The position numbers were made by a program, and so were the translations under genes. A stretch of DNA of 64,000 bases. Source: Eubacteriales bacterium. GTDB lineage: Bacteria > Bacillota > Clostridia > Oscillospirales > CAG-272. The stretch lies in NCBI GenBank assembly GCA_045124505.1, contig JBGVLZ010000039.1, forward strand, positions 23,110 through 87,109, written 5' to 3'. A model generated the notes under the pieces. The model was given only the letters and a program-made list of their open reading frames with translations. It was not told the origin of the DNA and ran no database searches. Below, in pieces: positions 129 through 57,324 of the stretch (the first letter of the stretch is position 1; each line of letters starts with the position of its first letter).

Positions 129-215
129 GCCGGTGTGATGGAATTGGCAGACGTGCTGGACTCAAAATCCAGTGGTAGCGATACCGTGCGGGTTCGACCC
201 CCGCCACCGGCACCA
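129..215 (+). tRNA. tRNA-Leu (anticodon CAA), long variable arm, CCA encoded
   Basis: Acceptor stem GCCGGTG/CACCGGC, anticodon arm CTGGA-CTCAAAA-TCCAG, long variable arm, T-arm GCGGG-TTCGACC-CCCGC, CCA at 213-215. Confidence 0.9.
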
Positions 216-23867: not shown

Positions 23868-23995
23868 TAATGCCTGCCCTGTCCTTTTGCCTGAGAGATT
23901 CGGCTGTAGCCTTGCACCTTCGGCACCCGCACGGCTTGCGGGATTCTCCAGAGCCTCCTCCGCCTTCGGTTTGCAAAATCCCAAAGGTTTCAACG
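23868..23995 (-). promoter_or_regulatory. glycine riboswitch (one complete aptamer plus a partial upstream aptamer-like segment)
   Basis: Minus strand reads CUCUGGAGAAUCCCGCAAGCCGUGCGGGUGCCGAAGGUGCAAGGCUACAGCCGAAUCUCUCAGGCAAAAGGACAGGG. This matches the conserved GGAGA...CCGAAGG.GCAA...CUCAGGCAAAAGGAC signature. A second ACCGAAGG lies upstream. Confidence 0.8.
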
Positions 23996-47380: not shown

Positions 47381-48493
47381 TTAGTCAAACACTTCTGAAA
47401 CATTCTTCAAAAATTCTCTTATGGGAAGCTTTTGCGGGCAGTGCTCCTCGCACATACCGCATTCTATACAAACAGAGGCTTTACCGTTTGTTTCCGATAC
47501 TTTTCTGTATCTTTCTTTCATGTGCCCCATTTTCGGCAAGCCGAAACGCTTGCTGTCATTATATATTGCAAAATACTCGGGAATTGCAATATTCATGGGA
47601 CAGTCATCAACACAGTAACGGCAGGCTGTGCATTTTATCGGTATATCTTTTCTGATTATTTCCGCACATTCCAGTGTGAGCTTCATTTCGTCATCTGTCA
47701 GCGGTACAAAATCCTTCATATAGCTGATATTGTCGTTTATCTGTTCTTCGTTGCTCATACCCGAAAGCACCATAACTACCTCGTCAAGCGATGCGGCAAA
47801 ACGGATAGCCCATGACGGAACAGACATATCAGGCTCTTTATCCTTCAAAAGCTTCTTAGCATTTTCCGAAATATCAACAAGTGCACCGCCCTTTACAGGC
47901 TCCATTACAAGCACGGGCTTACCGTGTTTTACAGCCACCTCATAGCACTGACGGGACTGAATTACATCATCCTCCCAGTCAAGATAATTTATCTGGAGCT
48001 GAACGTATTCAATTTCAGGATGCTCCGTAAGTATCGTGTCAAGTATATCCGCAGTATCATGGAATGAAAATCCTATATGCTTTACCTTTCCCTGCTCTTT
48101 AAGCTTCGCAACAAACTCAAATGCGCCGAATTCCTGCGCTTTCTTGTAAGAATTTCTCGAAAGCGAATGAACAAGATATATATCAACGTAGTCAACGCCC
48201 AGCTTTTCAAGCTGTCGGTCGAAAAATCCCTGCATGTCCTCTGCTTTTTCTATCATAAAAAGGCTGAGCTTATCAGTTACGGTATACGCATTTCTGGGAT
48301 ATCTGTCAGCAACGGCTTTTTTGAACACGACCTCACTCATACCGCCGTGGTACGGTGCGGCGGTATCAAAATATGTAAAACCGTTTTCAATAAAAGTATC
48401 TACCATTTTGCAGACACGGTTAATGTCTATTTCAGGCTTTTCGGTATTTTCTGTCATAGGCAAGCGCATAAGTCCGAATGCTAATTTTTTCAT
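47381..48493 (-). CDS. aldo/keto reductase with a C-terminal 2x[4Fe-4S] ferredoxin domain
   Basis: AKR N-terminus (GLMRLP, YHGG) and CTACRYCVDDCP / CIECGMCEEHCP. Confidence 0.8.
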   Translation of the reverse strand: MKKLAFGLMRLPMTENTEKPEIDINRVCKMVDTFIENGFTYFDTAAPYHGGMSEVVFKKAVADRYPRNAYTVTDKLSLFMIEKAEDMQGFFDRQLEKLGVDYVDIYLVHSLSRNSYKKAQEFGAFEFVAKLKEQGKVKHIGFSFHDTADILDTILTEHPEIEYVQLQINYLDWEDDVIQSRQCYEVAVKHGKPVLVMEPVKGGALVDISENAKKLLKDKEPDMSVPSWAIRFAASLDEVVMVLSGMSNEEQINDNISYMKDFVPLTDDEMKLTLECAEIIRKDIPIKCTACRYCVDDCPMNIAIPEYFAIYNDSKRFGLPKMGHMKERYRKVSETNGKASVCIECGMCEEHCPQKLPIREFLKNVSEVFD

Positions 48494-50413: not shown

Positions 50414-50442
50414 TTTACATTTTACGCATTTTGTTGTATAAT
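50414..50442 (+). promoter_or_regulatory. promoter of the pduL / NifU-like / GGGtGRT operon
   Basis: TTTACA-17 nt-TATAAT, 34 nt upstream of the pduL ATG. Confidence 0.6.
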
Positions 50443-50476
50443 ACCAAGAGTTAATAAATAAAAAGGAGATAGATCA

Positions 50477-51049
50477 ATGGCAAACAAAATTTTAGTTGAA
50501 ACATCTGCACGCCACGTTCATCTTACAAGAGAACACGTTGAGATCCTTTTCGGTAAGGGTGCAACACTTACACACAAGAAGGACTTGAGCCAGCCCGGTC
50601 AGTTCGCTTGCGAAGAAAGAGTAACTATTTCAGGCCCCAAGAAGGATATCCCCAACGTAATTATCCTCGGTCCGGAAAGACCTGCATCCCAGGTTGAAAT
50701 TTCATTCACAGACGCTCGTACACTCGGCGTTACAGCTCCTGTTAAGGAAAGCGGCGACGTTGCAGGCACACCCGGCGTAAAGCTCGTTGGCCCCTGCGGC
50801 GAAGTTGAGCTTAACGAAGGTGTTATCATCGCAAAGCGTCACATCCACATGACACCCGAAGATGCTGCAGCTCTCGGCGTTGAGGACAAGCAGATCGTAA
50901 GCGTTAAGGTTGATTCCGAACGTACAACGATCTTCGGTGACACAGTTGTTCGTGTAAGCCCCAAGTTTGCACTTGCAATGCACATCGACACAGATGAATC
51001 AAATGCTGCATGCGCTTTCGGCACATGCTACGGTGAGATCGTAAAATAA
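50477..51049 (+). CDS. pduL: PduL-type phosphate acyltransferase (phosphotransacylase)
   Basis: Duplicated signature SARHVHL / AKRHIHM, length 190 aa. Confidence 0.85.
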   Translation: MANKILVETSARHVHLTREHVEILFGKGATLTHKKDLSQPGQFACEERVTISGPKKDIPNVIILGPERPASQVEISFTDARTLGVTAPVKESGDVAGTPGVKLVGPCGEVELNEGVIIAKRHIHMTPEDAAALGVEDKQIVSVKVDSERTTIFGDTVVRVSPKFALAMHIDTDESNAACAFGTCYGEIVK

Positions 51050-51073
51050 TCATCTTAAAAGGAGATATATAAA

Positions 51074-51775
51074 ATGGCTGAATTACAGTATTCAAATGAA
51101 GTACAGCATATGTGTAAGGTCGCTAAAGGCCCCCACCACGGTCCTGCTCCCATTCCCGAAGAAGGCAAATGGGTAAAGGTTTATGAGATCAAGGATATTT
51201 CCGGTCTTTCCCACGGTATCGGCTGGTGCGCTCCTCAGCAGGGTACATGTAAGCTTACACTTAATGTAAAAGAAGGTATCATTGAAGAAGCTCTCGTTGA
51301 AACACTCGGTTGCTCCGGTATGACACACTCCGCAGCTATGGCTGCTGAAATCCTCCAGGGCAAGACACTTCTCGAAGCTCTTAATACTGACCTTGTTTGC
51401 GATGCTATCAACGTTGCTATGCGTGAGATCTTCAAGCAGCTCGTTTACGGTAGATCACAGACAGCTTTCTCCGAAAACGGTCTTCCCGTTGGTGCTTCTC
51501 TCGAAGACCTCGGTAAGGGTCTGCGTTCACAGGTAGGTACGATCTTCGCTACAAAGGAAAAGGGTGTTCGTTACCTTGAAATGGCAGAAGGTTATATACT
51601 TTCCCTCGCACTTGACGCAAATGACGAAGTTTGCGGATACAAGTTCGTTCACCTCGGCAAGATGATGGAAGCTATATCCAACGGTACAGATGCTGCTGAA
51701 GCTTATGAAAAGAACATCAAGACTTACGGCAGATACGACGGTGCGGCTAAATACATCAACCCCAGAAAGCAGTAA
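51074..51775 (+). CDS. NifU/IscU-N-like Fe-S scaffold-domain protein with a ~100-aa C-terminal extension
   Basis: Three Cys in IscU-like context: GIGWCAPQQGTCKL...LGCSGMTHSAAMAAE. Confidence 0.65.
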   Translation: MAELQYSNEVQHMCKVAKGPHHGPAPIPEEGKWVKVYEIKDISGLSHGIGWCAPQQGTCKLTLNVKEGIIEEALVETLGCSGMTHSAAMAAEILQGKTLLEALNTDLVCDAINVAMREIFKQLVYGRSQTAFSENGLPVGASLEDLGKGLRSQVGTIFATKEKGVRYLEMAEGYILSLALDANDEVCGYKFVHLGKMMEAISNGTDAAEAYEKNIKTYGRYDGAAKYINPRKQ

Positions 51776-51789
51776 TGGAGGGCAGACAA

Positions 51790-52788
51790 ATGATAAGATT
51801 TGAAGGATATGAAAGAAGAATCGCCGGAATCGAAGCTTGCATGGCTGAATACGGCATTAAGGATCTTGAAGAAGCAAGAGATATCTGCCTTGCAAAGGGT
51901 ATCAATGTTGAAGATATCGTTAAAGGCGTTCAGCCCATCGCATTTGAAAACGCTGTTTGGGCTTATACACTCGGTTGCGCTGTTGCAATCAAAAAGGGAG
52001 TAAAAAATGCTGCTGATGCCGCTGAAGCTATCGGTATCGGTCTTCAGGCATTCTGCATCCCCGGCTCTGTTGCCGCTAACCGTAAGGTTGGTCTCGGCCA
52101 CGGTAACCTCGGCGCAATGCTTCTGCGCGAAGAAACAAAGTGCTTCTGCTTCTTGGCAGGTCACGAATCATTTGCGGCTGCTGAAGGTGCTATCGGTATC
52201 GCAAGAAGTGCAAACAAGGTAAGAAAAGAACCCCTCCAGGTTATTCTTAACGGTCTTGGCAAGGATGCCGCTTATATCATCTCCAGAATCAACGGCTTCA
52301 CATACGTTGAAACTGATTATGATTTCTACTCTGACGAGCTTACAGTTAAGCGCACTATCGCTTATTCCGACGGCGAACGCTCCAAGGTAAGATGCTACGG
52401 CGCTAACGACGTTCTCGAAGGCGTTGCAATCATGAAGAAGGAAGCTGTTGACGTTTCCATCACAGGTAACTCAACTAACCCCACAAGATTCCAGCACCTC
52501 GTTGCAGGCACATACAAGAAGTGGGCTATCGAAAACGATAAGAAGTACTTCTCCGTTGCATCAGGCGGCGGTACAGGCAGAACACTTCACCCCGATAACA
52601 TGGCTGCAGGTCCTGCTTCCTACGGTCTTACAGACTCTATGGGACGTATGCACGGCGATGCGCAGTTCGCAGGTTCTTCCTCCGTTCCCGCACACGTTGA
52701 AATGATGGGTCTCATCGGCGCAGGTAACAACCCCATGGTTGGTATGACAGTTGCTTGTGCTGTTGCTATCGAAGAAGCAAGCAAATAA
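51790..52788 (+). CDS. uncharacterised GGGtGRT-motif protein
   Basis: SGGGTGRTLHPDNMAAGPASYG motif. Start set to MIRFEGY (GGAGGG SD, 7-nt spacing). The family name is recalled from NCBI annotation and has no known function. Confidence 0.6.
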   Translation: MIRFEGYERRIAGIEACMAEYGIKDLEEARDICLAKGINVEDIVKGVQPIAFENAVWAYTLGCAVAIKKGVKNAADAAEAIGIGLQAFCIPGSVAANRKVGLGHGNLGAMLLREETKCFCFLAGHESFAAAEGAIGIARSANKVRKEPLQVILNGLGKDAAYIISRINGFTYVETDYDFYSDELTVKRTIAYSDGERSKVRCYGANDVLEGVAIMKKEAVDVSITGNSTNPTRFQHLVAGTYKKWAIENDKKYFSVASGGGTGRTLHPDNMAAGPASYGLTDSMGRMHGDAQFAGSSSVPAHVEMMGLIGAGNNPMVGMTVACAVAIEEASK

Positions 52789-52802
52789 TCTGTAATTTAT
52801 TT

Positions 52803-52840
52803 AAAAGAGTCTTGGAATTTCAAGACTCTTTTGTTTATGT
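52803..52840 (+). terminator. operon terminator
   Basis: AAAAGAGTCTTG-GAATTT-CAAGACTCTTTT followed by GTTTATGTTT. Confidence 0.8.
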
Positions 52841-52846
52841 TTCCGT

Positions 52847-52919
52847 GCGCCCTGTCCGCCCCCCCGCAGTTGACAAAGTCAACTGCCCACGGACAAAGGG
52901 CGCATATTTCCTGCGGAAA
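52847..52919 (-). repeat. nested-palindrome repeat, copy B (inverted relative to A and C)
   Basis: Minus strand reads TTTCC-GCA-GGAAA, then TAT, then GCGCCCT..GTCCG..CAG-[TTGAC-TTT-GTCAA]-CTG..CGGAC-AGGGCGC. Confidence 0.8.
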
Positions 52920-54058: not shown

Positions 54059-54339
54059 AACCGATAATACACGTAAATCCGCTTCACGTAAATGTGGGGC
54101 AGGCACGGGGTGCTTGATTTAAATATATCGTTTTATATTATAATTTTTGAAGACAAAAATCGTTATTGTGCAAATAATTTCCGTTTAAAGTACCATTTTT
54201 CGCACCCATGTTTTTACATATTTTAAAAACTGTATACAGAAGTATTAGGGATTGCTGTATCATTATTTATTTTTTTCTGATAGAATGTTATGGTAAGACT
54301 ATAAAAAGATCTCAATACACGAAAGGTGATAATTTATCA

Positions 54340-57324
54340 ATGCTTGAGCTTAAGAAAATAAAAAAGGACTATCCCGTTGGTGACGGTGTAGTTCATGCTC
54401 TTAAGGGTGTCAATCTGTGCTTCGGCAAAAGCGAGTTTGTTTCGATACTCGGTCCGTCCGGATGCGGTAAAACAACGCTTTTGAACATCATCGGCGGACT
54501 TGACGGATACACAGACGGCGACCTTATTATAAACGGAAGGTCAACAAAGGATTACAAGGACAGAGATTGGGACACCTACCGTAACCACTCAATAGGCTTT
54601 GTTTTTCAAAGCTACAACTTAATTCCGCACCAGTCTGTTTTACAGAACGTAGAGCTTGCTCTGTCGCTTTCCGGTGTCAGCAAATCTGAAAGACGTCAAA
54701 GGGCAAAAGATGCTTTAAAGCTCGTCGGGCTTGAATCGCAGTACAACAAAAAACCGGGTGAGATGTCAGGCGGTCAGATGCAGCGTGTGGCAATTGCAAG
54801 AGCCATTGTCAACAATCCCGACATAATTCTCGCTGACGAGCCGACGGGTGCGCTTGACACAGAAACAAGTCTTCAGGTAATGGAGATATTGAAAGAAATA
54901 TCAAAAGAACGTCTTGTTATAATGGTAACGCACAACCCTGAGCTTGCGGAAAAATATTCAACACGTATTATCCGTATGCTTGACGGTGAAATTATGGGCG
55001 ACTCCATGCCTGCAGAGCCTGAGCCCATACTTCCAAGCACAAACAAAGCCAAAAAAGAGAAAAAGCCTTCAATGTCATTCGCAACATCTTTTTCCCTTTC
55101 ACTGAAAAACCTTTTTACAAAAAAAGGAAGAACACTCCTTACATCATTTGCGGGAAGTATCGGTATTATCGGAATTGCTGTTATCCTTGCCATTTCGCAG
55201 GGTATGACCGCATATATTGACACGGTGCAGGAAGACACCCTTTCGTCTTATCCGCTTATGCTTGAAGCAAAACACATGGATTTAGGTACTATTCTTGAAA
55301 CATTTGCAGGAACAGCACAGTCCATAGAAAAGCACGATAACGATGCAGTGTATCAAAAGGCGATGATGTATGACCTGCTTAACGCTTTGAACAATATGGA
55401 AGAGTCCGAAAATGACCTCGCATCATTCAAAAAATATATTGAGGAAGAAAAAAGCAACGAAGAAAGCAAGCTGTACACATCGCTCAGCGGTGTGCAGTAT
55501 TCCTACGGACTTGACATGCTGATCTACACAAAAAGTGCTGACGGCGATATAATCCGTTCCGATTCTAACACAATAATGCAGGACCTCATGGTCGAGCTGT
55601 TCGGCATGGATATGTCAAACATGATGGGAATGTCATCATCGGGCGGCGGACTTATGTCTATGTCTCCCGGTGCAAGCATGTCAAATGTCACGATGTGGCA
55701 GGAAATGCTCCCCGGTGAAAACGGCAAACCTGTAAGTGAGCTTCTTGAAAAGCAATATGACGTTGTATACGGAAGCTGGCCTGACGAATACAACGAGGTC
55801 GTGCTCGTACTTGATGCATTCAATGAGCTTGATGACTTTACGCTCTATGCACTCGGTCTTAAACCGAAGTCCGACATAGATGCAATAATGGATTCGGTAA
55901 TAAACGGCACAGAGATCAATATAGAAAGCCGCAAATGGACATATGAAGAAATATGCTCCATGGAATACAAAACGATACTTAATTCAGACTGTTTCAAATA
56001 CGATGAAGCAACAAAAACTTACGTAGACCTCAGAGATACGGATACAGGCTTAAAATATCTGTACGACAACGGTGTAGCCCTTAAAGTTTCGGGTATTATC
56101 AAGCCTGCAGAAAAAGCAGTATCAACAATGCTTACAGGTTCCATAGGTTACACACATCTGCTTACAAAGCACATCGTGGAGCAGTCGGAAAAATCCGTCG
56201 CTATATCAACTCAGCTTCAAAACCCTACAATCGATATTTTCACGAATCTTCCCTTCAAGACCTCGTCCGGCAGTTTAACAGACGAAGTAAAAGAAAAGGA
56301 ATTCAGAGAATATATCAAATCGCTCGATGTAAATGAAAAGGCACAGGCATATATTGCAATCAAATCTATACCGAGCGATGAATTCATAGAAGCCGCCCTT
56401 GAGCAGGCACTTGGAATGATGACACCCGACGATATGAGAGAAGCACTTTCGCAGGCTTTCTCACAGCAGATGGGAATGGGCGGTATAGATATCGAACAGT
56501 ATCTTTCATTGATGTCCGATGAAGACATCAGCGAATATTTTGCGGAAATGATGAAAGAACAGCTTAAAATGAACTACGCTTCGGAAACCGCATCACGTCT
56601 TTCGCAAATGACGCCCGATCAGCTTGCAGCAGCACTCGACGGCGAATCTGCCGAATATACAACAGAAATGTGCGTGCTTTACTACGATGCGGTTTTGGAA
56701 TTTTCAAAGGCATCGTATGAAGAAAACCTCAAGAAGCTCGGCTATGTAGACCTTGAAAAGCCCTCTGCAATAAACCTTTATGCGGCTTCGTTCAACGATA
56801 AGGATATCATTGAAGAAGTGATTCAGTCATACAATGACGGAGTTGATGAGCTTTCAAAAATCAACTACACTGACTACGTCGGACTTCTTATGTCATCAGT
56901 CACAACGATAATTGACGCAATTGCATATGTGCTTATATCATTCGTTGCGGTATCACTTGTTGTATCGTCAATTATGATAGGTGTAATAACGCTTATATCA
57001 GTTCAGGAAAGAACGAAAGAGATCGGTATTTTGCGTGCCCTCGGCGCATCGAAAAAGAACGTTTCAAGAATGTTCAATGCTGAAACGATGATAATAGGCT
57101 TCACTTCAGGACTTTTAGGTGTGCTTATCACATACCTGCTTTGCATACCGATAGATATGATAATGCAGCATGTCAGCGGTATCAAGAGTCTTGAAACAGA
57201 ATTCCCGATACTTGCGGCAGTGTTCCTCGTTGTAATAAGTGTTGTATTTACGCTTGTTGCAGGTATCATACCTTCAAGAAGTGCGGCAAAAAAAGATCCT
57301 GTAGTCGCTTTGAGAACAGAATAA
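54340..57324 (+). CDS. fused ABC ATPase / FtsX-type permease (MacB-like) with a ~560-aa extracytoplasmic domain
   Basis: Start set to MLELKKIKKDY. Walker A GPSGCGKTT, signature LSGGQMQR, Walker B ILADEPT. One TM, a long extracellular region, then three C-terminal FtsX TM helices. Confidence 0.85.
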   Translation: MLELKKIKKDYPVGDGVVHALKGVNLCFGKSEFVSILGPSGCGKTTLLNIIGGLDGYTDGDLIINGRSTKDYKDRDWDTYRNHSIGFVFQSYNLIPHQSVLQNVELALSLSGVSKSERRQRAKDALKLVGLESQYNKKPGEMSGGQMQRVAIARAIVNNPDIILADEPTGALDTETSLQVMEILKEISKERLVIMVTHNPELAEKYSTRIIRMLDGEIMGDSMPAEPEPILPSTNKAKKEKKPSMSFATSFSLSLKNLFTKKGRTLLTSFAGSIGIIGIAVILAISQGMTAYIDTVQEDTLSSYPLMLEAKHMDLGTILETFAGTAQSIEKHDNDAVYQKAMMYDLLNALNNMEESENDLASFKKYIEEEKSNEESKLYTSLSGVQYSYGLDMLIYTKSADGDIIRSDSNTIMQDLMVELFGMDMSNMMGMSSSGGGLMSMSPGASMSNVTMWQEMLPGENGKPVSELLEKQYDVVYGSWPDEYNEVVLVLDAFNELDDFTLYALGLKPKSDIDAIMDSVINGTEINIESRKWTYEEICSMEYKTILNSDCFKYDEATKTYVDLRDTDTGLKYLYDNGVALKVSGIIKPAEKAVSTMLTGSIGYTHLLTKHIVEQSEKSVAISTQLQNPTIDIFTNLPFKTSSGSLTDEVKEKEFREYIKSLDVNEKAQAYIAIKSIPSDEFIEAALEQALGMMTPDDMREALSQAFSQQMGMGGIDIEQYLSLMSDEDISEYFAEMMKEQLKMNYASETASRLSQMTPDQLAAALDGESAEYTTEMCVLYYDAVLEFSKASYEENLKKLGYVDLEKPSAINLYAASFNDKDIIEEVIQSYNDGVDELSKINYTDYVGLLMSSVTTIIDAIAYVLISFVAVSLVVSSIMIGVITLISVQERTKEIGILRALGASKKNVSRMFNAETMIIGFTSGLLGVLITYLLCIPIDMIMQHVSGIKSLETEFPILAAVFLVVISVVFTLVAGIIPSRSAAKKDPVVALRTE

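What the first reader, a model, noticed from the sequence alone, without database searches (positions are those of the whole stretch)
50414..52840. Compact pduL / NifU-like / GGGtGRT-motif operon with high-expression codon usage
Seen: one promoter (TTTACA-17-TATAAT) and one terminator bracket three ORFs.
- The first two share the same strong SD (AAAAGGAGAT at 50461 and 51059).
- The second and third are separated by only 14 nt, with a GGAGGG SD inside that junction.
- ORF1 has the duplicated PduL signature (SARHVHL, AKRHIHM).
- ORF2 has an IscU/NifU-N-like three-Cys core (GWC..GTC..LGCSGM) plus about 100 extra residues.
- ORF3 carries SGGGTGRTLHPDNMAAGPASYG and many Gly/Ala-rich segments.
- In pduL I count 11 AAG and 2 AAA Lys codons. 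The first ~45 codons of neighbouring degV have 5 AAA and 1 AAG. The operon therefore carries a distinct codon bias that looks like high expression.
- No microcompartment shell genes are in the window.

Known: PduL converts acyl-CoA to acyl-phosphate and can replace Pta in some anaerobes. The GGGtGRT family is, as far as I recall, named only after its motif.

Inference: this looks like an abundant Fe-S-linked enzyme pair coupled to acyl-CoA/acyl-phosphate metabolism, with an unknown reaction.
Basis: partly seen in the sequence, partly recalled or inferred. Interest (0 to 1): 0.62.

Follow-up and report, generated by a model that had tools for sequence, protein, structure and literature searches.

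The report
PduL operon, candidate missing-enolase pair
This very highly expressed three-gene operon joins an ordinary acetyl-phosphate-forming enzyme (PduL) to an ultra-conserved, uncharacterised iron-sulfur-type protein pair. Because this bacterium and its whole genus have no enolase, that pair is a directly testable candidate for the long-sought "missing enolase" of gut and rumen anaerobes.

Summary
One strong promoter and one terminator bracket pduL, a NifU/IscU-like gene and a GGGtGRT (PF14057) gene. All three rank 15th to 20th of 2,120 ORFs by codon adaptation, and metatranscriptome contigs cover the operon but not its flanks.

The last two genes form an obligate, abundant, probably Fe-S pair, adjacent in 78 of 80 loci. 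Their link to PduL is a lineage-specific arrangement, not a conserved coupling. PduL is simply this genome's only phosphotransacylase: there is no Pta and no microcompartment shell gene.

New here: the genome and all 11 genomes of its genus lack enolase, yet keep highly expressed GAPDH, PGK, TPI, iPGM and PPDK. In 301 genomes of the order that are at least 95% complete, 96 of 103 enolase-less genomes carry GGGtGRT, against 119 of 198 with enolase (p = 1e-10). Only 7 genomes lack both. Divergent family members sit beside three different kinds of phosphoglycerate mutase.

Best reading (about 0.5): the pair supplies the 2-phosphoglycerate to PEP step as an oxygen-labile Fe-S hydro-lyase. No biochemistry exists, and structure prediction was uninformative.

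The parts
50414..50442 (+). sigma-70-type promoter, TTTACA-17-TATAAT
   Evidence: One search gives 11 of 12 consensus matches. Metatranscriptome contig depth rises from about 0 to tens or hundreds just downstream.
50461..50470 (+). Shine-Dalgarno AAAAGGAGAT of pduL
   Evidence: Read directly from the sequence.
50477..51049 (+). pduL, a phosphotransacylase of 190 aa. It is the only one in the genome and has no N-terminal encapsulation extension.
   Evidence: PF06130 scores 1.4e-83 over residues 7-179. NF011652 scores 271 bits against a cut-off of 209. The genome has a single copy, no PF01515 Pta and no BMC shell. CAI rank is 15 of 2,120.
51057..51066 (+). Shine-Dalgarno AAAAGGAGAT of the NifU-like gene
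   Evidence: Read directly from the sequence.
51074..51775 (+). NifU/IscU-like protein of 233 aa. It has a remodelled IscU-type core with four invariant Cys (C52, C59, C80, C109) and a conserved C-terminal extension of about 110 aa. It is the presumed Fe-S subunit.
   Evidence: PF01592 scores 23.6 bits over residues 60-105 only. All NCBIfam IscU/NifU/SufU equivalogs score far below their cut-offs. Invariant residues come from alignment A2. CAI rank is 20. A separate canonical nifS-iscU operon lies at C18:3159-4806, with CAI ranks of about 900-1,200.
51777..51782 (+). GGAGGG Shine-Dalgarno inside the 14-nt ORF2/ORF3 spacer
   Evidence: Read directly from the sequence.
51790..52788 (+). GGGtGRT protein (PF14057) of 332 aa, the presumed catalytic or substrate-binding subunit. 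It has no invariant Cys but many invariant His, Glu, Arg, Lys, Ser and Gly-rich loops.
   Evidence: PF14057 scores 1.1e-192. Invariant residues come from alignment A1. No relative was found in the PDB by sequence or by fold. CAI rank is 17.
52802..52843 (+). intrinsic terminator: 14-bp stem, 4-nt loop and a T-rich tail
   Evidence: Metatranscriptome depth falls to 0 from 52873 onwards.

Best explanation
The locus is one constitutive, very highly expressed operon of central fermentation.

Gene 1 (PduL) is the organism's only phosphotransacylase. With acetate kinase it converts acetyl-CoA to acetyl phosphate for ATP formation. This rests on family membership and on the absence of Pta; the activity itself is inferred.

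Genes 2 and 3 encode an obligate two-subunit protein. One subunit is IscU-derived and has four invariant cysteines that presumably hold a permanent Fe-S cluster. The other is the GGGtGRT subunit, whose invariant Gly-rich loops and Arg, Lys, His and Glu residues presumably bind and act on a small phosphorylated acid.

I propose that this pair carries out the step that enolase normally performs, 2-phosphoglycerate <-> phosphoenolpyruvate + H2O. Mechanistically it would be an oxygen-labile Fe-S hydro-lyase, with the cluster iron activating the C3 hydroxyl as in aconitase, class I fumarase or L-serine dehydratase. In this genus it would be the sole enzyme for that step. In genomes that also keep enolase, such as B. 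thetaiotaomicron, it would be an iron-replete isoenzyme.

Shown: operon anatomy, pair obligacy, expression level, absence of enolase, and the complementary distribution. Inferred: the Fe-S cluster, the substrate and the reaction.
For: 1. Enolase is absent from this genome. There is no PF00113 hit, and tblastn with a same-order enolase gives a best E of 0.54. It is also absent from all 11 genomes of the genus, five of which besides the window's own are 96-98% complete.

2. The flanking glycolytic steps are kept and highly expressed by CAI: GAPDH rank 2, PPDK 3, PGK 18, TPI 38 and iPGM 103 of 2,120. The pair ranks 17 and 20. The two MgsA-like genes rank only 625 and 967.

3. In 301 genomes of the order at >=95% completeness the counts are: eno+/G+ 119, eno+/G- 79, eno-/G+ 96, eno-/G- 7.
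- GGGtGRT is present in 93% of enolase-less genomes and 60% of enolase-bearing ones (Fisher p = 1e-10).
- Double negatives number 7, against 29 expected under independence and about 5 expected from assembly gaps alone.
- Enolase-less carriers occur in 13 of 22 families and at least 47 genera.
- A conservative genus-level bound still gives p = 0.015.

4. In the phylum sample, 3 of 7 enolase-less genomes carry the pair, against 18 of 301 overall (p = 0.005).

5. Enolase looks relaxed in carrier genomes. Only 6 of the 50 best-scoring enolases are in carriers (p = 2e-12, not corrected for phylogeny). All six enolase hits with internal stops are in carriers.

6. The divergent clade of the family (51-68% identity) sits beside phosphoglycerate mutase genes of three unrelated types: ApgM (L082, L096), a His_Phos_1 (dPGM-superfamily) gene (L082, L096) and bacterial iPGM (L097).

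7. Literature:
- BT0173-4 falls 11-13-fold in low iron (PMC10434189).
- Its transposon mutants phenocopy pfkA weakly and grow normally where enolase exists (bioRxiv 10.64898/2026.04.10.717545).
- The pair is abundant in gut and rumen proteomes and varies together with GAPDH, PPDK and PEPCK (PMC11204068, PMC7035244).
- The enolase gap is an acknowledged unsolved problem (PMC2914790, PMC11026938, PMC11187502, PMC10542786, PMC11257099).

8. A separate canonical nifS-iscU operon of ordinary expression exists, so ORF2 is not the general scaffold.
Against: - There is no biochemical evidence of any kind.
- Cell extracts of enolase-less Butyrivibrio proteoclasticus showed only a very low enolase activity in a coupled assay (PMC2914790). 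The methods give no indication that air was excluded, and I did not verify that this strain carries the pair.
- 119 of 215 carriers keep enolase, so the pair is not simply a replacement.
- Seven genomes lack both genes.
- The association is not phylogenetically corrected, and I could not run a control family.
- Known Fe-S hydro-lyases use three Cys ligands and leave one iron free; here four Cys are invariant.
- AlphaFold models were poor exactly at the conserved GGGTGRT...AHVEM segment (pLDDT <50). A read-through fusion model did not improve it.
- Foldseek found no hydro-lyase-like fold.
- No fluoride riboswitch was found in the window or in 11 related loci.
- The genome has two MgsA-like genes, so a methylglyoxal bypass is not excluded.
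- PPDK could make PEP from pyruvate for biosynthesis.
Confidence: 0.5

Rival explanations
1. The pair is an Fe-S enzyme acting on another phosphorylated C3 or central-carbon intermediate. It would allow enolase loss only indirectly, for example as one step of a bypass from 3-PG or 2-PG to pyruvate or PEP by different chemistry.
For: It shares the same distribution and phosphoglycerate-mutase neighbourhood evidence. A HAD phosphatase and a His_Phos_1 gene sit beside divergent members, which could indicate phosphate-ester hydrolysis steps. The reported enolase activity in an enolase-less strain was low (PMC2914790).
Against: No additional conserved partner gene exists. Only the NifU-like gene is a universal neighbour. 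iPGM is kept at high codon adaptation, and 2-PG has no other common fate.
Confidence: 0.2
2. The pair is not a metabolic enzyme. It would be an abundant Fe-S cluster or iron handling module for scaffolding, storage, repair or carriage, or an oxidative-stress protein. Its link to enolase loss would be a by-product of shared ecology.
For: It has an IscU-derived domain. Its expression depends on iron (PMC10434189, PMC5395762). It is co-detected with rubrerythrins in proteomes (PMC11204068).
Against: A separate canonical nifS-iscU operon exists. All IscU/NifU/SufU equivalog models fail by a wide margin. The Cys site is remodelled to four invariant Cys. The GGGtGRT conservation pattern, with Gly-rich loops and invariant His, Glu, Arg and Lys, looks like an active site. 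A storage role does not explain the deficit of double negatives (7 against 29 expected) or the phosphoglycerate-mutase neighbours.
Confidence: 0.12
3. This is the first reader's idea: the pair works with PduL on acyl-CoA or acyl-phosphate substrates, for example as an acyl-phosphate-converting Fe-S enzyme.
For: The three genes share an operon here and in close relatives. pduL is the only recurrent neighbour besides the partner gene, occurring in about 13 of 80 loci in three different arrangements.
Against: PduL is present in only 9 of 18 carrier genomes, against 59% overall. It is absent from B. thetaiotaomicron, which has the pair, and from L082, L085 and L096-L098. The linkage is equally well explained by co-regulation of two high-flux fermentation steps.
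Confidence: 0.06
4. Enolase is bypassed by the methylglyoxal shunt or made unnecessary by diet (deoxy-sugars, amino acids). The pair would then have an unrelated, still unknown role such as a regulator or sensor of glycolytic state.
For: Two MgsA-like genes are present. Rhamnose-pathway-like genes, named from memory of their N-terminal sequences only, have high codon adaptation. BT0173-4 mutants have only a mild regulatory phenotype (bioRxiv 10.64898/2026.04.10.717545).
Against: The MgsA-like genes have ordinary codon adaptation, ranks 625 and 967. The shunt yields no ATP (PMC11026938). It does not explain the retention of highly expressed PGK and iPGM, nor the complementary distribution. A protein ranked with ribosomal and glycolytic genes is unlikely to be a sensor.
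Confidence: 0.08

Closest known systems
B. thetaiotaomicron BT0173 (GGGtGRT) / BT0174 ('NifU'), and C. pasteurianum F502_05012
   Same: Same two-gene module, with about 74% identity across phyla for GGGtGRT. It is abundant, iron-responsive and has no assigned function (PMC10434189, PMC5395762, bioRxiv 10.64898/2026.04.10.717545).
   Different: Here the pair is fused into an operon behind pduL, and it sits in a genome and genus that have no enolase. B. thetaiotaomicron keeps enolase and has no PduL.
IscU / NifU N-terminal domain Fe-S scaffolds (PF01592; PDB 4EB5 chain C, 2L4X)
   Same: Residues about 52-116 align to the IscU core, and the GC(S/G) second-cysteine motif is conserved.
   Different: The Pfam score only just passes (23.6 against 22). 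The equivalog models score 16-27 bits against cut-offs of 92-273. The first-Cys/Asp loop is replaced by C52...C59, and a fourth invariant Cys (C109) and a conserved extension of about 110 aa are added. The protein is always paired with GGGtGRT, never with a cysteine desulfurase. A canonical IscU exists elsewhere in the genome.
Fe-S hydro-lyases (aconitase, class I fumarase, L-serine dehydratase, IlvD/Edd dehydratases)
   Same: The similarity is in proposed chemistry only: dehydration next to a carboxylate assisted by a cluster iron; oxygen lability; iron-dependent expression with an iron-free isoenzyme as back-up, as for FumA/FumC. This rests on established knowledge of those families.
   Different: No sequence or fold similarity was detected. 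The pair is a two-subunit IscU-derived architecture with four invariant Cys rather than three.
Enolase (PF00113/PF03952, EC 4.2.1.11)
   Same: It is the proposed same reaction and pathway position. Its distribution is complementary to that of the pair.
   Different: It is not homologous. Enolase is a Mg2+-dependent TIM-barrel enzyme with no Fe-S cluster.
PduL phosphotransacylase (PF06130) of Pdu/Eut microcompartments, and PduL as a Pta substitute
   Same: ORF1 is a full-length PduL with both RH(V/I)H repeats.
   Different: There are no shell genes in the genome, no encapsulation extension and no Pta. It therefore acts as the housekeeping enzyme.

Membership tests
PduL / PTAC phosphotransacylase (PF06130) | Full-length match to the family profile above its curated cut-off | tested here: met
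   279.5 bits against a cut-off of 25, over residues 7-179 and profile positions 2-174 of 176. NF011652 scores 271.4 against 209.
PduL / PTAC phosphotransacylase (PF06130) | Duplicated His-containing motif (SARHVHL / AKRHIHM) | tested here: met
   Both motifs are present in the translation.
Microcompartment-associated PduL/EutD | BMC shell genes in the genome, and the Gram-positive EutD model cut-off | tested here: not met
   The genome has no PF00936 hit. NF040837 scores 273 bits, below its cut-off of 315.
GGGtGRT protein family (PF14057) | Full-length profile match and the GGGTGRT motif | tested here: met
   639.6 bits against a cut-off of 27, covering profile positions 1-327 of 327. The motif is at residues 259-265 of the 332-aa protein.
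GGGtGRT protein family (PF14057) | NifU-like partner gene immediately upstream | tested here: met
   Found in 78 of 80 loci, with the two exceptions cut off by contig ends. Also found in L082, L085 and L096-L098.
IscU/NifU/SufU Fe-S assembly scaffolds | Passing a curated equivalog model (TIGR01999, TIGR03419, TIGR01994, TIGR02000) | tested here: not met
   Scores of 15.8-27.4 bits against cut-offs of 92-273. Pfam NifU_N only just passes, at 23.6 against 22, and covers only 46 residues.
IscU/NifU/SufU Fe-S assembly scaffolds | Three cluster-ligand Cys at the canonical positions | tested here: inconclusive
   Only C80 aligns with a canonical Cys. C52 and C59 flank the position of the first, and C109 lies outside the aligned region.
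IscU/NifU/SufU Fe-S assembly scaffolds | Genomic association with a cysteine desulfurase | tested here: not met
   None of the 80 loci has a recurrent desulfurase neighbour. The genome's nifS-iscU operon is elsewhere, at C18:3159-4806.
Enolase (EC 4.2.1.11) - function, not homology | Catalysis of 2-PG <-> PEP | not testable with these tools
   Only indirect evidence exists: complementary distribution, absence of enolase from the genus and phosphoglycerate-mutase neighbours.
Enolase superfamily (PF00113/PF03952) | Sequence homology to enolase | tested here: not met
   No Pfam hit other than PF14057 and PF01592. tblastn with enolase against the genome finds nothing.
Fe-S hydro-lyases | Bound Fe-S cluster with a substrate-accessible iron | not testable with these tools
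   Four invariant Cys and iron-dependent expression in the literature (PMC10434189) are suggestive only.
Fe-S hydro-lyases | Sequence or fold similarity to a known hydro-lyase family | tested here: not met
   Foldseek against the PDB gives a best E of 0.02 and TM scores below 0.3. The profile search against PDB sequences finds nothing.

The most novel reading that the evidence does not exclude
The NifU-like/GGGtGRT pair is a previously unrecognised, oxygen-labile, iron-sulfur-dependent 2-phosphoglycerate dehydratase. It would be a non-homologous enolase with a new fold. It would be the sole enzyme for this glycolytic step in roughly a third of the genomes of this order and in other enolase-less gut, rumen and termite-gut anaerobes, and an iron-replete isoenzyme elsewhere.
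Probability: 0.4. Interest if true: 0.95.

Novelty: categorically new. Interest (0 to 1): 0.8.

Why it matters
Enolase is treated as a universal, essential glycolytic enzyme. Its absence from Butyrivibrio proteoclasticus (2010) and later from many rumen, gut and termite-gut bacteria is still listed as an open gap in fermentation biochemistry (PMC11026938, PMC11187502, PMC11257099).

The pair studied here is one of the most abundant uncharacterised proteins of gut anaerobes. This window adds three things:
- a lineage in which the whole genus lacks enolase while keeping the neighbouring steps highly expressed;
- a quantitative complementary distribution, with 294 of 301 genomes having at least one of the two;
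- phosphoglycerate-mutase linkage of divergent members.

If the hypothesis is right, it fills a hole in a textbook pathway and defines a new enzyme class and fold. It would correct metabolic reconstructions of thousands of microbiome genomes. It would also explain the iron dependence, and possibly the fluoride insensitivity, of glycolysis in these organisms.

If it is wrong, the pair remains a top-priority unknown. The locus itself is an ordinary member of a catalogued family (PF14057); the novelty lies in the function, not in the sequence.

Tried and rejected
1. AlphaFold2 of GGGtGRT alone, with a 25-sequence alignment, gave pLDDT 77 and pTM 0.80. The most conserved segment, residues 259-307, stayed below 50.

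2. Foldseek against the PDB found nothing better than E = 0.02 and TM below 0.3. The matches were generic Rossmann-like hits (PFK, USP, MGS) that I do not interpret.

3. To model the heterodimer in one chain, I translated related loci in which the two genes share a frame, reading the single stop codon as Gly (L002 and 24 others, alignment A3). The model was worse: pLDDT 64, with the NifU part mostly below 70. It gave no sign of an ordered interface. I drew no conclusion from it and did not run a fold search on it.

4. Sequence and profile searches of PDB chains found no relative of GGGtGRT.

5. The long GGGtGRT 'fusions' in the databases (P0001, P0002, P0018, P0129, P0142) are assembly duplications or chimeras, not natural fusions.

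6. The fluoride-riboswitch lead from earlier notes was not reproduced. Rfam found none in the window or in 11 related loci.

7. Obligate coupling to PduL was rejected.

8. A role as the general Fe-S scaffold was rejected, because a canonical nifS-iscU operon lies elsewhere.

9. A conserved third gene does not exist in the main clade. The membrane-anchored protein downstream in two loci of the divergent clade (L082, L097) has no homologue in this genome.

Full report
OBSERVATION

The window is contig C39:23110-87109 of a 2.76-Mb assembly that is 96.9% complete and has 41.7% G+C. Its nearest public relatives are uncultured Eubacteriales and Oscillospiraceae-type MAGs. Metatranscriptomes that hold the sequence come from bovine gut.

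- A TTTACA-17-TATAAT promoter lies at 50414-50442, and a 14-bp-stem terminator lies at 52802-52833.
- Between them are three ORFs: pduL (50477-51049), a NifU-like gene (51074-51775) and a GGGtGRT gene (51790-52788), each with a strong Shine-Dalgarno site.
- Pfam confirms PF06130 at 1.4e-83, a marginal PF01592 hit (23.6 bits over residues 60-105), and PF14057 at 1.1e-192.
- The Lys-codon count for pduL (11 AAG, 2 AAA) is exact.

A self-consistent codon adaptation index over 2,120 ORFs puts the three genes at ranks 15, 20 and 17. They sit among L7/L12, GAPDH, PPDK, L1, EF-Tu and PGK. The upstream neighbour degV ranks 1,106th.

In four gut metatranscriptomes, contigs at >=95% identity cover 50538-52872. 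Summed depths there run from about 7 to about 1,700 per bin, against mostly 0-4 per bin (two isolated bins reach 10 and 26) over the 6.5 kb upstream and 5 kb downstream. The boundaries coincide with the promoter and the terminator. Contig depth is a crude measure, and conserved stretches may collect reads from related species. The direction of the result is nevertheless clear.

WHAT THE GENES ARE

PduL is a single-copy gene. The genome has no Pta/Ptb family gene and no microcompartment shell gene. It does have a highly adapted ORF (rank 30) that I read as acetate kinase from its N-terminal sequence; no family search was run on it. PduL is therefore the housekeeping phosphotransacylase, not part of a Pdu or Eut organelle.

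The NifU-like and GGGtGRT genes are an obligate pair.
- In 80 genome loci the NifU-like gene lies directly upstream in 78; the other two are cut off by contig ends.
- The same holds for the only truly divergent family member I could find (P0151, 51% identity) and for its metagenomic relatives.

The GGGtGRT family is extraordinarily uniform. A search of 1.84 billion 50%-identity cluster representatives returned essentially one full-length cluster (74% identity) plus that single outlier. The rest were fragments and chimeras.

GGGtGRT has no invariant cysteine. It has a dense set of invariant residues: H104, H125, E126, E132, R145, K158, R166, E210, N227-T229, K243, K244, the GGGTGRT loop, H267-N270, R286, H288, S296-S298, H302, E304, N313 and N314.

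The partner has four invariant cysteines (C52, C59, C80, C109) and a conserved C-terminal extension of about 110 residues. Only C80 sits at a canonical IscU ligand position. The first-Cys loop is rebuilt. All curated IscU, NifU and SufU equivalog models fail by a wide margin.

The genome also has a normal nifS-iscU-mnmA-type operon at C18:3159-5864, named from sequence similarity only, with ordinary codon usage at ranks of about 900-1,900. ORF2 is therefore a specialised derivative and not the cell's general scaffold.

IS THE PAIR COUPLED TO PduL?

No. Clustering all neighbours of the 80 loci shows that pduL is the only recurrent neighbour besides the partner gene. It occurs in only about 13 loci, in three arrangements.

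In an even sample of 301 genomes of the phylum, GGGtGRT occurs in 18 and PduL in 179. PduL is present in 9 of the 18 carriers, so there is no enrichment. B. thetaiotaomicron has the pair and no PduL.

The operon here is best read as co-regulation of high-flux fermentation genes.

THE LEAD AND ITS TEST

The literature gives no function for the pair.
- It is abundant in rumen proteomes alongside 'NifU', GAPDH, PPDK and PEPCK (PMC7035244).
- In B. thetaiotaomicron BT0173-4 falls 11-13-fold in low iron (PMC10434189).
- Transposon insertions in BT0173-4 weakly phenocopy pfkA in a glucose-signalling screen without a growth defect (bioRxiv 10.64898/2026.04.10.717545).

Notes from earlier agents of this scan proposed that the pair could be the 'missing enolase'. 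I treated that as a hypothesis and tested it on this genome.

1. The genome has no enolase. There is no PF00113 hit, and tblastn with an enolase from the same order gives nothing better than E = 0.54.
2. This is a trait of the lineage, not an assembly gap. None of the 11 genomes of the genus has enolase, including five others that are 96-98% complete.
3. The steps on both sides are kept and look highly expressed: GAPDH rank 2, PGK 18, TPI 38, iPGM 103, PPDK 3. The two MgsA-like genes, which could feed a methylglyoxal bypass, rank 625 and 967.
4. In 301 genomes of the order at >=95% completeness the four classes are: enolase+/pair+ 119, enolase+/pair- 79, enolase-/pair+ 96, enolase-/pair- 7.
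   - The pair is present in 93% of enolase-less genomes against 60% of the others (Fisher p = 1e-10).
   - 294 of 301 genomes have at least one of the two.
   - The 7 double negatives compare with 29 expected under independence and about 5 expected from 3% assembly loss.
   - Enolase-less carriers are spread over 13 of 22 families, and at least 47 genera are wholly enolase-less among their carriers. This implies many independent losses.
   - The most conservative genus-level bound still gives p = 0.015.
5. In the phylum sample, where the pair is rare (6%), 3 of the 7 enolase-less genomes carry it (p = 0.005).
6. Where enolase persists in carriers it looks relaxed.
   - Only 6 of the 50 best-scoring enolases belong to carriers, although carriers are 60% of enolase-bearing genomes.
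   - All six enolase hits with internal stop codons are in carriers.
   - This result is confounded by phylogeny, but its direction is consistent.
7. The divergent clade gives independent context. One further locus, L098, has no phosphoglycerate mutase nearby.
   - L082 and L096 place the pair beside an ApgM-type phosphoglycerate mutase and a histidine-phosphatase (dPGM-superfamily) gene.
   - L097 places it two genes from a bacterial iPGM.

Phosphoglycerate mutase makes the substrate of enolase.

MECHANISM PROPOSED

The dehydration of 2-phosphoglycerate removes a proton next to a carboxylate and a beta-hydroxyl. This is the reaction type that Fe-S hydro-lyases perform with a cluster iron as Lewis acid. 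Examples are aconitase, class I fumarase, L-serine dehydratase and the IlvD/Edd family; this is established knowledge of those families.

I propose the following division of labour:
- the IscU-derived subunit holds the cluster;
- the GGGtGRT subunit contributes the phosphate- and carboxylate-binding loops and the acid-base residues.

An Fe-S isoenzyme of enolase would account for several observations:
- the iron-dependent expression;
- the normal growth of B. thetaiotaomicron mutants, which keep enolase;
- the mild glycolysis-like signalling phenotype;
- the near absence of measurable enolase activity in B. proteoclasticus extracts, if those were assayed in air (PMC2914790).

All of this is inference. 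I did not verify that B316 carries the pair.

WEAKNESSES

- There is no biochemistry.
- More than half of the carriers keep enolase.
- Four invariant Cys, rather than three, is atypical for a hydro-lyase.
- The association is not tree-corrected, and I had no searches left for a control family.
- AlphaFold could not order the key conserved segment, either alone or in an artificial read-through fusion with the partner.
- Foldseek and profile searches found no relative of known structure.
- The fluoride-riboswitch association noted by earlier agents was not seen in the window or in 11 related loci.
- A methylglyoxal bypass is not excluded, nor is a different reaction on a neighbouring metabolite.

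VERDICT

The PduL-coupling interpretation is not supported.

The locus is an ordinary member of a catalogued but uncharacterised family. It lies in a genus that makes the 'missing enolase' hypothesis unusually sharp. I put about 0.5 on the pair supplying the enolase step in some way, and about 0.4 on it being a direct Fe-S 2-phosphoglycerate dehydratase.

Noticed in passing
whole genome G000 and genus g1 (no window coordinates): Enolase (PF00113) is absent from all 11 sampled genomes of the genus and from 103 of 301 high-quality genomes of the order. iPGM, PGK, GAPDH, TPI and PPDK are kept here with high codon adaptation.
   Followed up: yes
L082:2572-8580, L096:842-6141, L097:1163-5329: The divergent GGGtGRT clade (51-68% identity) sits next to an ApgM-type phosphoglycerate mutase, a HAD hydrolase, a His_Phos_1 protein or a bacterial iPGM. 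Nearby are Xre-type HTH regulators and, in L082 and L097, a conserved membrane-anchored protein of about 330 aa (44-49% identity between the two). That protein has no Pfam family and no homologue in this genome.
   Followed up: partly
G259:C20:23896-24717; also G324, G355, G447, G524, G530, G551: These enolase hits contain internal stop codons, so they are probable pseudogenes. All of the genomes concerned also carry GGGtGRT.
   Followed up: partly
window 51773-51790 versus L002:5287-6999: In the 97%-identical relative L002 the NifU-like and GGGtGRT genes are in the same frame, separated by a single TAA. In the window they are in different frames. The spacer therefore differs by an indel not divisible by three, while both keep a short SD-containing junction. 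38 of about 85 loci have the in-frame arrangement.
   Followed up: partly
window 23869-23961 (-): A glycine riboswitch aptamer (RF00504, 62.5 bits) was found. A single tRNA lies at 129-212 (+).
   Followed up: no
window 47381-48493 (-): This 370-aa ORF looks like an aldo/keto-reductase-type protein. It ends in two CxxCxxCxxxCP ferredoxin-like motifs (CTACRYCVDDCP, CIECGMCEEHCP). This reading comes from the translation only.
   Followed up: no
window 54208-57324 (+): This 1,038-aa ORF has an N-terminal ABC ATPase motif set followed by a long permease-like region, which resembles a MacB/FtsX-like fusion. This reading comes from the translation only.
   Followed up: no
G000 C101:2783-6036 and C76:25167-26417: ORFs that look like deoxy-sugar (rhamnose or fucose) catabolic enzymes are among the 40 most codon-adapted genes. 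This hints at the organism's main substrates. The names come from my memory of N-terminal sequences and were not tested.
   Followed up: no
P0001, P0002, P0018, P0129, P0142 (database proteins): Over-long 'GGGtGRT' proteins in public collections are internal duplications or chimeras, for example with an ABC ATPase or a Tex-like protein. They are assembly artefacts rather than natural fusions.
   Followed up: yes
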